This document shows, one piece after another, positions 36,344-41,943 of a stretch of DNA of 64,000 nt; position 1 is the stretch's first letter; every line of letters begins with the position of its first letter. Source of the DNA: a virus (Duplodnaviria; Caudoviricetes); the IMG/VR virus record IMGVR_UViG_3300042268_000564; one strand, 5' to 3'. The position numbers and the translations under genes are program-made. The notes under the pieces were generated by a model. It did no database searches and was not told the DNA's origin. It saw only the letters and a list, made by a program, of their open reading frames with translations.

Positions 36344-36595
36344 TTATATTTTTCTTATGTTGATAATCACGCCGTTTTTTTGAGGATAAAACTCAACCAG
36401 AACCTCATCGTCAACTTTTGGGACAAAGTTTAACTGTTGTATCAGCTTTTTGACGAGCGTGGGTTTCCCGTTCAGGTCGAAAGTTACCTCAATTTGCATC
36501 CTTGACTGTAGGTCAGGGTAAATGCCAGTAATTTTGCCCTTATATCTTTTGGGTTGAATCTTGCTTTTGTCTATATTTTTACGCCAATATGTCAT
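36344..36595 (-). CDS. small OB-fold-like protein resembling a baseplate-spike N-terminus
   Basis: FVPKVDDEVLVEF; ATGA-coupled to the FN3 gene. Confidence 0.45.
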   Translation of the reverse strand: MTYWRKNIDKSKIQPKRYKGKITGIYPDLQSRMQIEVTFDLNGKPTLVKKLIQQLNFVPKVDDEVLVEFYPQKNGVIINIRKI

Positions 36596-37395
36596 TGTTC
36601 TTCCTGCGTCCAAGTAATGGTCATGTCGTGAGTTTCTTGGTCGACCACAAGGTCAATGTCGGCAGGAGCTGGCAGAACAGTTTGACCGCCAGCAGATGCG
36701 CTAAAGCTTACGTTTCCCGGAATCTTTAATGGTGTCGAGTCACCTCTTGCATCAGTAGCCTGTATCGCAAACCAATAAGTTGTGTCTGCGAGCAGATTGT
36801 AAAGCGTAAGAGATGTTTCAGTTTCAGCAACAATTACAGGTGAATTGGCAGGTATTAACCCATCGGCATCAAGAGTTAAGCCTGTGCCGTTATAATCGCT
36901 ATGGTAATCCATTTTATATAAAACCTTGTAACCAGTTGCGCCAATTACAGATGCCCATGTAAGCGTAATGCTGTTGTCTATATTGCGGATAATGTCTGCA
37001 TTTGCAGGTTGGTTGATTAAATTTAAAGTTGTAAAATTTTGAGACTCGACCGAAATGGTACCATTGCCAGTAACCGACCAAGAATATGTTGTATCTGAAT
37101 CGAGATATTGGTTCAACGTGGCACTTGTTACATCTGTAACGTTTTGTTGAATGTTGTTTATGCCATCCGTAACAGATAACAGGTAATTATTATCAAATGT
37201 CTTTACATCAAACCTGTTCGGGAATGTGTATGTGTCTGGCTGGTCGTTTATAACAGTTTTAATTCGCCAGTAATAAGTCCCTGATGGCAACGTAACGTTA
37301 ATTGCAGACAGAGAAATTGAATTTCCTGTTACAGCTATAGAGTGCAAAACGGTTGAAAAAATCTGATTGTCTGAAATTTGCAAATAATTTAGCAT
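36592..37395 (-). CDS. FN3/Ig-like protein with partial domains
   Basis: YLQISD..F...GTYYWRIK; LLADTTYWFAIQA. Confidence 0.75.
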   Translation of the reverse strand: MLNYLQISDNQIFSTVLHSIAVTGNSISLSAINVTLPSGTYYWRIKTVINDQPDTYTFPNRFDVKTFDNNYLLSVTDGINNIQQNVTDVTSATLNQYLDSDTTYSWSVTGNGTISVESQNFTTLNLINQPANADIIRNIDNSITLTWASVIGATGYKVLYKMDYHSDYNGTGLTLDADGLIPANSPVIVAETETSLTLYNLLADTTYWFAIQATDARGDSTPLKIPGNVSFSASAGGQTVLPAPADIDLVVDQETHDMTITWTQEEQ

Positions 37396-37410
37396 AAGAA
37401 TCCTTTCCTC

Positions 37411-40400: not shown

Positions 40401-40593
40401 CAGAATCTTTGTAAATATTGTAACTGACAGCATATGGGTCAGGTTGCCACATCAAATCGCAACTTTCTGCCTGCAAGTTTAGAATTTTAAGAGTGGGCGG
40501 CGACTCTGTTGAGACGACCCACTTAAAAGTTAAATCTTCAAAATTATCTGTTGAATTATGCGCTGGGCTAACAAGTGTTATTTGTCTTGTCAT
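37411..40593 (-). CDS. large fibronectin-III repeat protein (about 10 domains), likely virion surface
   Basis: Repeated T.TSI.L.W...Y.I...TGL....Y units; acidic and Thr-rich. Confidence 0.85.
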   Translation of the reverse strand: MTRQITLVSPAHNSTDNFEDLTFKWVVSTESPPTLKILNLQAESCDLMWQPDPYAVSYNIYKDSVLVENVSNLLSKYSFTTLTPCSSHTLGVSAIDSLGVESATSEVTVQTLASTLVTGINATNVTTTSFTLNWNHNGCCNNGYHIWGNCISGGSNINETLPSGSTTLELTGLFVGAQYILYLAGIKDGVEQEAVVFKTATQTTALVSPSVQGLTSTTATVSFDAIAAVEGYRIYDDTGLVNEFFDQPTSFPTTISRTITGLTSYTNYNLYLVAIKYGIESVPSAPLQITTLPAPVQNVSFGEVTASSIELTWDAETDVDGFHIVETNMTSNATFTPLPTDTNYIHTGLTYGNYHYTITSIKNGTYSEPVDIWVTTAIPPINDLIVSSTTTESITFAWTPMSYTGSYSNADAYGYVFETADGNISLNTDDYGGILVISSSEYHFTVPNLTPETNYDWQMYSLASNPSSANAIQPSEKTPILNVTTASVPPELITDFTILSKTETSIEVGWVESSNAESYRVWATKQGSSVIEFDQNYPAGTNSAIITLAAIDAGQYFNCYITSERKSLVSAETSLVANTLCAAPTALTLLSQQTIDELNCEVTLTWLSSEGVVGYYYLHNLTTDEIHNVYEGTQKTLTLACAQDFSFLVYKENNNDINTRSTPSNTLSITTLLPLVLPVTNLLQLDASETSASIEWSASSGATLYKVYYGDGSTWTLAGETVDTQYEITGLVAAVNLFAKVESYNGDGATMTSGHPTVALQLAPATITGLSQTGSIQTDTIRVGWDGSNYESGDLLQLHLVNLSTMEETTSSLPATSYAENISSFISPENSTGETFSITAQIQKQGNPYLSVASAPITAYTAPKNLQLQHVSSDVETLNISWTSSPSATDYTVEALVGGVVQATNIATTPDVYQFTNLSITDGLEFDILVKPKTSSTGLSYYYDPASSYPVPERMYTQINPVSSFNASLNGNNVDLNWFHLKYVINGLELHYAYHITCAETGLDIMADKSATTFSHTDAILGQASGTVLTYNIVVKNRYELTNGITYANSEPVTVTVTVP

Positions 40594-40611
40594 GTTTTAT
40601 ACTCCTCTGCT

Positions 40612-41943
40612 TCAAGCTGCTGGCGTCGTGACAGTGATTAACAAATCGATACCAACCCAATTACTGTTTTCATCTTTCGCTTTAATGGTTATGTAATTAT
40701 TCGTTTCAGGCTGGCTTGTAACATCCCAATATAGATTCGGGGGGAAAACTGTTTGTGATAAAATAACCCCATTATTTAACACGGTGTATGAGACGCCATC
40801 ATTGAACGGAAGCCAATTCACTGTGAAGGAGGTTGGCGTGAGATTAGTTACCCAAATTTGCGCAAGCGTTGTTGCGTCAATCGTTTCAATGCTGGTGTAG
40901 CTGGTTGCAAGATGCCCTCGCACGCCTAACGTGTAAGCGGTATCAAAATTCAAGCCTGTAAAAATATAAGACGTGGATGTTGTAGCAGCTATGGGTGTCC
41001 CGTTTAAATACACTGTATAGTTATCTGCACCGATATCAAACCATGTCATCGTAATGCTTTCCCCTTGCACGTCGGCAAGTTGTGGATTAAGCGCAGGAGG
41101 GTTCCATGATGAAGTTGTAACGATAATAGATGCTGGCGACGTTTCAACAGTGCCAGTCGGCGTGTCGCTTATCGCCACCAGTTTAAAAGAAAAAGTCGTG
41201 TCGGGGCTTACATCTGTAAAAACTTTATTGCCGATACCAATAACAAAAGTTTCTTCATATGACGACAAAGTGTCCCACAAGCGATAAGACTCTGCCCCCG
41301 AGGATTCAAACCATTGCAAAGTAAAGCCTGATTCTGTTATGGCAGAGGCTGTGAAGTTCGTAATGTCGTCGGGTGGGGAATTAACTGTTATTGTAGTCAC
41401 GGGGGTTAATTCGCCATCGACAAGAGCCGTCAAAGAAAAATCATTGTTGCTGCCAGCGGGGATTGCTATTGTAGCTTGTGTGATGTCTGCTGTAAAAGTC
41501 GAATCATATCCTAATGAATCCGCCCACACACGGTAACTTGTAGCGGATGGTATCGGCAGCCAAGACAATATTACCTCGGTAGAGGACAACATGTTAATAT
41601 CCGCAGTAACAGATGTGATTATATTAGGGATAAAACTTATGCTTGATTCACCATTGACGTTAACCGATGACACACCTAAGTTTTGATAAGAATTGGGAGC
41701 CAAATTCGCGATGTCAAAATAATTAACGATTGTATTGCCGATATTAATTTCATCTACGTATATATTGTAACTGGTTGAGTCTGGAACATGGTTCCATTGC
41801 AATGTAGCAGATGTTGCGCTATTGATTGATGATACCACTAAATTAGTCGGCGCTGACGGCGAAAGCCCCCATAAAAAGCTAGGCTTTATCGGAATGTCGA
41901 CATCATCTTGCGCTGGCGATATTAATTTAATTTTGCGAGACAT
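40612..41943 (-). CDS. fibronectin-III repeat protein (4-5 domains)
   Basis: PSAPTNLVV...ATLQW...SYNIY; FTGLNFDTAYTLGV. Confidence 0.85.
   Translation of the reverse strand: MSRKIKLISPAQDDVDIPIKPSFLWGLSPSAPTNLVVSSINSATSATLQWNHVPDSTSYNIYVDEINIGNTIVNYFDIANLAPNSYQNLGVSSVNVNGESSISFIPNIITSVTADINMLSSTEVILSWLPIPSATSYRVWADSLGYDSTFTADITQATIAIPAGSNNDFSLTALVDGELTPVTTITVNSPPDDITNFTASAITESGFTLQWFESSGAESYRLWDTLSSYEETFVIGIGNKVFTDVSPDTTFSFKLVAISDTPTGTVETSPASIIVTTSSWNPPALNPQLADVQGESITMTWFDIGADNYTVYLNGTPIAATTSTSYIFTGLNFDTAYTLGVRGHLATSYTSIETIDATTLAQIWVTNLTPTSFTVNWLPFNDGVSYTVLNNGVILSQTVFPPNLYWDVTSQPETNNYITIKAKDENSNWVGIDLLITVTTPAA

What the first reader, a model, noticed from the sequence alone, without database searches (positions are those of the whole stretch)
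36592..41943. Ig/FN3 domains appear split across three genes (possible strand-complementation assembly)
Seen: the two large FN3 proteins each start with an orphan half-domain (RKIKLISPAQDDVDIPIKPSFLW; RQITLVSPAHNSTDNFEDLTFKW). The third protein starts with two orphan remainders (YLQISDNQIF...LPSGTYYWRIK; YLLSVTD...LDSDTTYSWSV) and ends in another orphan first half (PAPADIDLVVDQETHDMTITW). In intact proteins LxSP...FxW is normally followed directly by YxLQIS...TYYWRV. Inference: the 267-aa protein is a two-socket adaptor that docks both long FN3 fibres by fold complementation and plugs into a further virion protein.
Basis: inference. Interest (0 to 1): 0.7.

Follow-up and report, generated by a model that had tools for sequence, protein, structure and literature searches.

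The report
Split Ig-domain plug-and-socket fibre adaptor
In a 394-kb uncultured jumbo phage, two long fibre-like proteins each start with the first two strands of a small beta-sandwich domain, and a 267-residue protein carries the two matching strand-less remainders, so the three probably clip together by rebuilding the domains between chains.

Summary
A four-gene minus-strand unit, bracketed by terminators, encodes P0003 (443 aa), P0002 (1060 aa), P0001 (267 aa) and P0004 (83 aa).

- **Sockets:** profile comparison with 239 intact copies of the "LxSP..FxW / YxLQ / YYWRV" Ig-like domain puts P0001 residues 5-65 on profile columns 32-92 of 93 (E 1e-15). Residues 70-124 fall on columns 29-92 (P 4e-6).
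- **Plugs:** the conserved N-termini of P0002 and P0003 fall on columns 3-24 (P 6.5e-6).
- **Conservation:** all three known adaptor homologues (35-48% identical) keep the same cut. Two lie beside both plug types; the third sits on a 1.1-kb contig that shows no plug gene. No fused form was found.
- **Model:** a three-chain model scores 0.80 against a best control of 0.31. It puts P0002's hairpin into module 1 and P0003's into module 2, with B-E strand pairing. Halves of a known fold can pass from memory, so this supports binding but does not show it.

Still open are the partner of P0001's C-terminal hairpin, the role of P0004, and where the complex sits on the virion. The closest solved precedent is the composite Ig domain of BppU and BppA in phage Tuc2009. 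This scan has noted similar split FN3 systems on other DNA and in this phage's tail genes. I rate it a new variant of a known kind.

The parts
40612..41943 (-). P0003, 443 aa: type-1 plug followed by five FN3 domains
   Evidence: ORF and translation. Pfam fn3 E 2e-13. Five FN3 matches with a self-built FN3 HMM. RBS GAAGGAGAG upstream of the ATG.
41863..41943 (-). Type-1 plug, P0003 residues 1-27: strands A-B (LISP...SFLW) of the YYWRV-type Ig-like domain
   Evidence: hhalign places the plug profile on columns 3-24 of the intact domain, P 6.5e-6. Conserved in L002/L015 and L003. In the complex model, residues 1-7 and 10-27 touch P0001 module 2.
37411..40593 (-). P0002, 1060 aa: type-2 plug followed by about ten FN3 domains
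   Evidence: Pfam fn3 E 1.7e-29. FN3 HMM matches. RBS AGAGGAG.
40513..40593 (-). Type-2 plug, P0002 residues 1-27 (LVSP...LTFKW)
   Evidence: Orthologous N-termini occur in the L003 812-aa and L015 1084-aa proteins. In the model, residues 3, 5-7 and 10-27 touch P0001 module 1.
36592..37395 (-). P0001, 267-aa adaptor: socket 1, socket 2, one FN3, a linker and a C-terminal hairpin
37195..37395 (-). Socket module 1, residues 1-67: strands C to G only, starting at YLQIS
   Evidence: hhalign 5-65 onto columns 32-92 of 93, E 1e-15. HMM positions 33-90, E 2e-11. The start point is the same in all four sequences.
37015..37194 (-). Socket module 2, residues 68-127: strands C to G only (YLLSV...TYSWSV...FTT)
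   Evidence: hhalign onto columns 29-92, P 3.9e-6. In the model it contacts the P0003 plug.
36700..37014 (-). Complete FN3 domain with a long insert (YKxDY...GTGLTLD...YWFAIQA), residues 128-232
   Evidence: Pfam fn3 E 1.6e-8, residues 129-222. The same module ends the 1586-aa (L002/L015) and 655-aa (L018) fibre proteins.
36595..36699 (-). Linker and C-terminal hairpin AB' (PAPADIDLVVDQETHDMTITWTQEEQ), residues 233-267; partner unknown
   Evidence: Conserved in all adaptor homologues and on other fibre proteins. Only weak FN3 A-B likeness, P 0.002. pLDDT 32-42 in the monomer model.
36344..36595 (-). P0004, 83 aa: last gene of the unit (ATGA overlap with the P0001 stop); small OB-like beta-barrel
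   Evidence: Homologues are 71-77% identical and end the cassette in L015 and L018. AF2 pLDDT 80.8 with five strands. Only weak OB-fold matches, best E 0.015.
42005..42024 (-). Terminator-like hairpin upstream of the unit (end of the preceding gene)
36311..36338 (-). Terminator-like hairpin ending the four-gene unit

Best explanation
The four genes form one transcription unit that builds a branched, non-covalent fibre complex.

P0001 is an adaptor. Its first 127 residues are two tandem Ig-like domains of the 'LxSP..FxW / YxLQ / YYWRV' type (the N-terminal Ig of Pfam DUF4962, Ig_Rha78A_N, Big_13). Each lacks strands A and B. P0002 and P0003 are strings of FN3 domains, and each begins with exactly that missing A-B hairpin.

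The hairpin of P0002 inserts into module 1 and the hairpin of P0003 into module 2. Each insertion restores a complete beta-sandwich: the plug's B strand pairs with the socket's E strand, its A/A' region lies next to G, and the plug tryptophan sits in the core. One adaptor therefore carries two different fibres.

The cut lies in the B-C loop. In a 1372-aa protein of the same genome, that loop of an FN3 holds a whole RCC1 propeller in cis. Splitting the domain turns the fibres into exchangeable cassettes. Relatives keep the plugs and sockets while the distal parts differ in length and content.

What is shown: the sequence anatomy, the conservation and the model. What is inferred: that binding happens in vivo, that the complex sits on the virion, and that the conserved C-terminal FN3-plus-hairpin module anchors it, perhaps together with the OB-like P0004.
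For: 1. **Profile coordinates.** The plugs and the two sockets cover complementary parts of one domain, and there is no room for A-B strands in P0001.
2. **Intact copies exist in the same genome.** A 559-aa protein has two copies spanning HMM positions 3-92 and 2-92. The truncated form is therefore not the lineage's normal form.
3. **Conservation.** All three adaptor homologues found among 1.84 billion cluster representatives start at the same YL(E/Q)IS point, at 35-48% identity. L003 and L015 encode the adaptor together with both plug types. Each plug type forms its own orthologous group.
4. **No fused form.** None was seen. The next-best hits match at only domain-level similarity (26-42% identity in the top ten, most over fewer than 60 residues) and are long multi-repeat proteins.
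5. **Complex model.** Score 0.80 in the best runs (0.80, 0.78, 0.80); best of 3 controls 0.31. That mark was reached by 58 of 80 solved complexes and 2 of 110 mismatched pairs. These counts hold only roughly here, because I supplied my own alignments and three chains. The runs agree in at least 95% of contacts, and the partner's pLDDT is 90. Plug 2 contacts only module 1 and plug 1 contacts module 2. The closest pairs are B-strand residues 22-25 against E-strand residues 25-27 and 90-93. Replacing P0003 lowers the score to 0.31 and the partner's pLDDT to 78.
6. **Monomer model.** P0001 alone folds poorly in AF2: mean pLDDT 60.8, pTM 0.35.
7. **Insertion in cis.** In the 1372-aa protein, strands A-B lie at residues 957-978 and C-G at 1272-1322, with the RCC1 propeller between them.
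8. **Solved precedent.** In Tuc2009, a BppU C-terminal hairpin completes BppA domain 2 to give a titin-like Ig domain (PMC4742702).
Against: - There are no experimental data. The only evidence for binding is a structure predictor, which is expected to reassemble halves of a well-known fold from memory.
- The alignments are shallow (2-4 rows).
- Each plug match is only about 22 residues. P0003's own plug scores -0.2 bits against the HMM on its own.
- Relatives carry more hairpins than known sockets. L015 has two AB' hairpins and two plugs for two sockets.
- The gene unit lies about 190 kb from the structural module, among small genes of unknown function, so a virion location is unproven.
- L003 carries plug 1 inside a protein, so 'N-terminal' is not a strict rule.
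- The third adaptor homologue (P0010) sits on a 1.1-kb contig that is too short to show plug genes.
Confidence: 0.65

Rival explanations
1. The conserved termini are docking or recognition peptides of some other kind, or they fold back in cis onto their own first FN3 domain. The two P0001 modules would then be self-sufficient five-stranded domains, possibly packing face to face. The likeness to 'halves' would be only a relic of ancestry.
For: In the AF2 monomer, module 1 reaches pLDDT of about 85 in several blocks. The plug match rests on a short segment. Predictors tend to rebuild known folds from pieces (caveat stated). In the model, the first FN3 of P0003 also touches P0001.
Against: Without strands A and B, the E strand would stand alone and the core would be exposed. 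Module 2 is poorly predicted on its own (pLDDT 53-68). The partner's pLDDT rises to 90 with both plugs and falls to 78 when P0003 is replaced. The plug contacts are the canonical B-E and A'-G pairings, not a surface patch.
Confidence: 0.15
2. The complex forms as proposed but is not part of the virion. It would be, for example, an adhesin-like complex released at lysis, or one that acts inside the infected cell.
For: The unit lies at 36-42 kb among small non-structural-looking genes (phosphoesterase, ATP-grasp-like), far from the baseplate and tail module at 226-262 kb. There is no match to any capsid or tail attachment domain.
Against: None of the four proteins starts with a signal peptide or membrane segment (by eye from the sequences; no predictor was run). 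FN3 or Ig strings with conserved terminal attachment modules are typical of phage fibres and decoration proteins. Relatives' fibres carry LRR, RCC1 and Glug adhesin-type heads. The same genome uses truncated domains in its tail genes.
Confidence: 0.15
3. The pieces are non-functional debris from gene rearrangement, pseudogenisation or assembly error.
For: Gene order differs between relatives: the adaptor comes before the plug genes in L015 and after them in the window and in L003. The cassettes are clearly recombinogenic.
Against: The cut point, start codons and ribosome-binding sites are the same in four independently assembled sequences at 35-48% identity. The reading frames are long and intact. 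Both plug types and both sockets are under evident purifying selection. The proteins of this phage are each on record from 4-6 contigs.
Confidence: 0.05

Closest known systems
Lactococcus phage Tuc2009 baseplate tripod: BppU C-terminal beta-hairpin with BppA domain 2 (PMC4742702)
   Same: A roughly 25-residue two-strand hairpin at the end of one phage structural protein completes a beta-sheet of an incomplete domain in another. The result is a composite titin-like Ig domain that holds an accessory receptor-binding module on the virion.
   Different: There is no detectable sequence relationship. Here the hairpins are N-terminal (internal in one relative) and supply strands A-B. One adaptor has two tandem sockets for two different long FN3 fibres. 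The host phages are roughly 390-kb jumbo phages. Nothing here is solved experimentally.
Donor-strand complementation and exchange in chaperone-usher pili (Pap/Fim) and strand exchange in type V pili (established knowledge)
   Same: An Ig-like fold is left incomplete in one subunit and completed non-covalently by strands from another subunit. This gives very stable fibre joints.
   Different: Pilins lack the single C-terminal G strand and receive one N-terminal strand. Assembly needs a periplasmic chaperone and an usher, or a protease in type V pili. Here two strands (A-B) are missing, no chaperone, usher or protease gene lies in the unit, assembly would be cytoplasmic, and the product is a branched hetero-complex rather than a homopolymer.
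Branched receptor-binding-protein systems of phages (G7C gp63.1/gp66, CBA120 TSP1-4, SP6/K1-5 adaptor; established knowledge)
   Same: A small adaptor or anchor protein carries two or more interchangeable fibres or spikes through conserved terminal docking modules, while the distal parts vary between relatives.
   Different: Those systems dock complete, independently folded domains (T4 gp10-like and anchor domains) in trimeric assemblies. Here the docking element is a domain split between chains. No gp10-like domain was found in the Pfam or PHROGs scans of these proteins.
Engineered split Ig-like and CnaB domains (SpyTag/SpyCatcher and relatives; established knowledge)
   Same: A beta-sandwich cut into a short tag and a larger catcher that reassemble spontaneously.
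   Different: Those are engineered and lock covalently through an isopeptide bond. I did not look for isopeptide-forming residues here, and the cut removes two strands.

Membership tests
YYWRV-type Ig-like domain (N-terminal Ig of Pfam DUF4962 / Ig_Rha78A_N / Big_13) | A contiguous domain of about 93 residues with strands A-B (LxSP...FxW) followed by C-G (YxLQ...YYWRV...WSF) | tested here: not met
   Intact repeats of the hits match DUF4962, Ig_Rha78A_N and Big_13. In the window, no single chain holds the whole domain. P0001 covers columns 29/32-92 twice, and P0002 and P0003 cover columns 3-24. The pieces are homologous to the family but split.
Fibronectin type III (PF00041) | A significant match to the fn3 profile over a whole domain | tested here: met
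   P0003 2e-13, P0002 1.7e-29 and P0001 residues 129-222 1.6e-8. This holds for the fibre bodies and the third domain of P0001, not for the plugs or sockets.
Tuc2009 BppU/BppA-type composite Ig joint | A terminal beta-hairpin of one protein completes a sheet of an incomplete Ig-like domain of another | tested here: inconclusive
   Predicted with score 0.80 against best control 0.31, with B-E strand contacts. This is a model only; no structure exists.
Tuc2009 BppU/BppA-type composite Ig joint | Sequence homology to BppU or BppA | tested here: not met
   BppU-like_C reaches only E 0.0015, below its cut-off, on an FN3 stretch of P0003. The PDB profile search finds only weak FN3 matches, best E 0.014.
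Chaperone-usher donor-strand complementation | The subunit lacks the C-terminal G strand, and the donor is a single N-terminal extension strand | tested here: not met
   The missing strands are A and B, both sockets have a G strand, and the donor is a two-strand hairpin.
Chaperone-usher donor-strand complementation | A dedicated periplasmic chaperone and an outer-membrane usher encoded alongside | tested here: not met
   The unit holds only the four genes described. Pfam and PHROGs show no chaperone or usher family.
Phage_base_V / gp5 OB domain (PF04717), considered for P0004 | A match above the Pfam gathering score | tested here: not met
   E 0.13, 13 bits against a cut-off of 23.8, over 15 residues. 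The model is an OB-like barrel with only weak structural matches (TM about 0.5, E at least 0.015).

The most novel reading that the evidence does not exclude
These jumbo phages may use a set of at least three mutually orthogonal split-FN3/Ig docking tags:
- N-terminal A-B plugs of two specificities, which fit the adaptor's sockets.
- A C-terminal FN3-plus-hairpin module ending in TW(T/N)QEE.
- A C-terminal A-to-C' partial FN3 ending in WDTPPNGADSYK(I/V)KVNGVE, which may fit an N-terminal E-F-G piece.

Together with the tail proteins that lack a G strand, these would form a general plug-and-socket grammar for assembling and swapping fibre modules. That would be a natural, non-covalent counterpart of Tag/Catcher toolkits, with the conserved OB-like P0004 as the receptor or chaperone for the C-terminal hairpin.
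Probability: 0.35. Interest if true: 0.8.

Novelty: new variant of a known kind. Interest (0 to 1): 0.62.

Why it matters
If binding is confirmed, this would be a second, independent and more elaborate natural case of phage proteins joined by rebuilding one Ig-like domain from two chains. Here a single small adaptor would present two different long fibres.

It would explain how very large phages can exchange adhesin-like fibre cassettes (FN3 strings, RCC1 propellers, LRR and Glug heads) without touching the attachment site. It would help annotation, because 'truncated' terminal domains would then be read as joints rather than errors.

It would also offer short natural peptide-and-socket pairs of two specificities for protein engineering and phage display. 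The same logic recurs elsewhere in this genome and, according to earlier unchecked notes of this scan, in giant viruses and small-genome bacteria. The principle may therefore be widespread, although my literature searches found no description of it.

Tried and rejected
- **Relatives in phage collections:** megablast and tblastn against GenBank phages found nothing. Two IMG/VR scans found nothing.
- **Metagenome scan:** a scan with the adaptor alignment returned nine distant matches at 32-44% identity over at most 83 query residues. The one I inspected lies inside a 3743-aa ORF.
- **Word-indexed search with P0003 residues 1-115:** it returned only P0003 itself.
- **AF2 of P0001 alone:** confidence was too low (pLDDT 60.8) to say whether the C-terminal hairpin folds back in cis, so I ran no fold search on that model.
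- **Frameshift fusion of P0001 and P0004:** rejected. The ATGA overlap puts P0004 in the -1 frame, but there is no slippery heptamer. P0004 homologues also follow a different gene in L015.
- **Socket for the C-terminal hairpin AB':** I searched all genome ORFs with the domain HMM and a self-built FN3 HMM. No ORF starts at an FN3 C strand. The only N-terminal partial FN3 is the E-F-G start of the 966-aa protein, which fits the 1372-aa protein's C-terminal tag better.
- **Inversion or misassembly joining the 1372-aa and 966-aa genes:** rejected. Each gene has its own terminator, ribosome-binding site and in-frame upstream stop, and they share only about 10 nt.
- **P0004:** the protein-atlas features scored 0.81, which is noise level. 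Foldseek gave only generic OB folds.
- **Literature:** searches for phage strand or fold complementation with FN3 or Ig domains found no matching description.
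Full report
**Setting.** The window lies in a 393,839-bp virus record of IMG/VR, rated complete. Window positions 934-64000 correspond to genome positions 1-63067. G+C content is about 39%.

The finding covers three consecutive minus-strand genes:
- P0003: 41943-40612, 443 aa.
- P0002: 40593-37411, 1060 aa.
- P0001: 37395-36592, 267 aa.

Each has a Shine-Dalgarno sequence and an ATG. A fourth gene, P0004 (36595-36344, 83 aa), starts in an ATGA overlap with the P0001 stop. Terminator-like hairpins lie just upstream of P0003 (42024-42005) and just downstream of P0004 (36338-36311). 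The four genes therefore look like one transcription unit.

**What the pieces are.** Pfam and PHROGs see only FN3 domains.

An exhaustive phmmer search with P0001 residues 1-128 against 1.84 billion cluster representatives found 172 proteins. Three are short adaptor homologues (P0005, P0007, P0010). The others I read through are long proteins with tandem copies of an intact domain of about 93 residues. Its signature is LxSP...FxW, then YxLQ(V/I)S, then GTYYWRV, then WSF. Pfam files such repeats under the N-terminal Ig of DUF4962, Ig_Rha78A_N and Big_13.

I built an HMM from 239 intact repeats and compared the phage pieces with it.
- P0001 residues 5-62 align to HMM positions 33-90 of 94 (E 2e-11).
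- Profile-profile comparison puts adaptor module 1 on columns 32-92 of 93 (probability 98.6%, E 1e-15).
- Module 2 falls on columns 29-92 (probability 87%, P 3.9e-6).
- The aligned N-termini of the five plug-bearing proteins fall on columns 3-24 (probability 85%, P 6.5e-6).

Only four residues lie between the G strand of module 1 and the C strand of module 2. Both modules therefore truly lack strands A and B, and the cut is in the B-C loop.

The same genome also encodes intact copies. A 559-aa protein has two, spanning HMM positions 3-92 and 2-92.

The exception is the C-terminal 'first half' of P0001. It has no likeness to this domain type and only a weak likeness to FN3 strands A-B (P 0.002).

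**Conservation.** No relative exists in GenBank phages or IMG/VR. Metagenome assemblies hold three.

*L002/L015 (one phage).* This locus is syntenic with the window upstream of the cassette. Its genes, in order:
- a 1586-aa Glug/FN3/RCC1 protein;
- a 266-aa adaptor that starts MNYLEIS;
- a 610-aa protein starting MSQRISLVSP...SLTW (type-1 plug);
- a 1084-aa protein starting MTRQITLLQP...TFRW (type-2 plug);
- an 82-aa homologue of P0004.

*L003/L004.* Its genes, in order:
- a protein of more than 570 aa in which the type-1 plug is internal, followed by one FN3;
- an 812-aa protein with the type-2 plug at its N-terminus;
- the 264-aa adaptor P0007.

*L005.* This contig carries the adaptor P0010 and is too short to show more.

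The adaptors are 48, 45 and 35% identical to P0001, and all begin at the same C-strand point. The two plug types form separate orthologous groups, each with its own following FN3 domain. No fused form appeared in either protein search.

Among 780 domain instances in the non-phage hits, only three start a protein at HMM position 25 or later; I did not inspect those three. This conservation at low identity rules out assembly error or recent decay.

**Does it complement?** AF2 of P0001 alone, with a four-row alignment, is poor: mean pLDDT 60.8 and pTM 0.35. Module 2 scores 53-68 and the C-terminal hairpin 32-42.

I then modelled three chains: P0001(1-128), P0003(1-120) and P0002(1-120), with P0001 as the scored partner.
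- The three runs scored 0.80, 0.78 and 0.80.
- The best of three controls scored 0.31. That was the control in which P0003 was replaced. The two controls that replaced the partner scored 0.00.
- The mark was reached by 58 of 80 solved complexes and 2 of 110 mismatched pairs. These counts hold only roughly here, because I used my own alignments and three chains.
- The runs agree in at least 95% of contacts, and the partner's pLDDT is 90.

In the model, P0002 residues 3, 5-7 and 10-27 touch P0001 residues 1-5, 22-36, 43-47 and 57-67, which is module 1. P0003 residues 1-7 and 10-27 touch residues 71, 73 and 90-126, which is module 2.

The most confident pairs put plug residues 22-25 (strand B, including the tryptophan) against residues 25-27 and 90-93 (strand E) and against core residues of strands C and F. 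Plug residues 14-17 lie against the G strand (121-123). These are the contacts of an intact sandwich.

One caveat must be stated. Halves of a well-known fold tend to pass this test by likeness to solved structures. The result shows that the pieces are compatible and specific in the model, not that they bind.

**Supporting anatomy elsewhere in the genome.** These features lie outside the window and I followed them only partly.
- A 1372-aa FN3/RCC1 protein (genome 93518-97633, minus strand) has an FN3 whose A-B strands (residues 957-978) and C-G strands (1272-1322) are separated by the RCC1 propeller. In this lineage, then, a B-C loop tolerates a large insertion in cis.
- That protein ends in a partial FN3 covering strands A to C'. 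The same tag ends an unrelated 848-aa fibre protein in L015.
- A 966-aa protein (genome 140852-143749) begins with FN3 strands E-F-G, behind its own ribosome-binding site.
- Several tail-module ORFs stop right after the F strand.

It also pointed me to the Tuc2009 precedent, which I checked in the paper. There, the 25-residue C-terminal hairpin of BppU completes a sheet of BppA domain 2 and gives a titin-like composite domain (PMC4742702).

**Open parts.** The FN3-plus-hairpin module at the C-terminus of P0001 also ends the 1586-aa fibre of L015 and a 655-aa LRR/FN3 fibre in a third phage, L018. It looks like a common attachment or oligomerisation module.

In all three cassettes that are fully seen (the window, L015 and L018), such a module co-occurs with a P0004 homologue as the last gene. 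P0004 is much better conserved (71-77% identity) than the fibres.

AF2 models P0004 as a five-stranded OB-like barrel with a disordered N-terminus (pLDDT 80.8). It has only generic OB matches. Whether it receives the hairpin could not be tested.

Virion location is inferred from three things. None of the four proteins starts with a signal peptide or membrane segment (by eye; no predictor was run). The architecture is fibre-like. Relatives carry adhesin-type heads. Against this, the unit lies far from the structural genes.

**Verdict.** The split is real, old and conserved. A plug-and-socket complex in which P0001 carries both fibres by rebuilding two Ig-like domains in trans is the best explanation, with confidence 0.65.

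It works like the Tuc2009 BppU-BppA joint and, more loosely, like donor-strand complementation in pili, but it is not a member of either family. I rate it a new variant of a known kind. This scan has noted similar split-FN3 arrangements on other DNA; those notes are unchecked.

Noticed in passing
G000:C1:93518-97633 (-), outside the window: A 1372-aa protein with about 11 FN3 domains. An RCC1 propeller is inserted in the B-C loop of one FN3 (A-B strands at residues 957-978, C-G strands at 1272-1322). The protein ends in a partial FN3 covering strands A to C' (...ITWDTPPNGADSYKIKVNGVE...*). The same C-terminal tag ends an unrelated 848-aa fibre protein in L015 (10964-13510, -).
   Followed up: partly
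G000:C1:140852-143749 (+), outside the window: A 966-aa protein starts, behind its own RBS and an in-frame upstream stop, with FN3 strands E-F-G only (MANWQATITGLDSETSYNIEV...). It is a candidate socket for the C-terminal partial FN3 of the 1372-aa protein. I ruled out an inversion or misassembly as the cause.
   Followed up: partly
G000:C1:240278-255349 (+), outside the window: Four tail or baseplate-module ORFs stop a few residues after the F-strand YYWRV-like motif, so they have no G strand: 240278-241123, 244188-245336, 252974-253987 and 253991-255349. A 94-aa ORF (245350-245631) holds only strands A-E and is followed by an ORF that looked dUTPase-like by eye.
   Followed up: partly
window 36344-36595 (-): P0004 is an 83-aa OB-like barrel, 71-77% identical in relatives whose fibre proteins are only 35-48% identical. 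It is always the last gene of the fibre cassette, and in L018 it directly follows a fibre that ends in the TWNQEE hairpin module.
   Followed up: partly
L018:7811-10040: An anaerobic-digester relative has a minimal cassette: one 655-aa LRR_5 + FN3 protein ending in the same FN3-plus-hairpin module, then the P0004 homologue. It has no adaptor and no plug genes.
   Followed up: partly
L003:3-1715: In this relative the type-1 plug is internal. It is preceded by an RCC1/FN3 string and followed by a single FN3, so the plug need not be at an N-terminus.
   Followed up: partly
window 36269-36296 (-): A perfect extended sigma-70 consensus (TTGACA, 16 nt, TG-TATAAT) lies directly after the unit's terminator, ahead of the 62-aa gene at 36228-36040. 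That gene has a homologue in the same position in L015.
   Followed up: no
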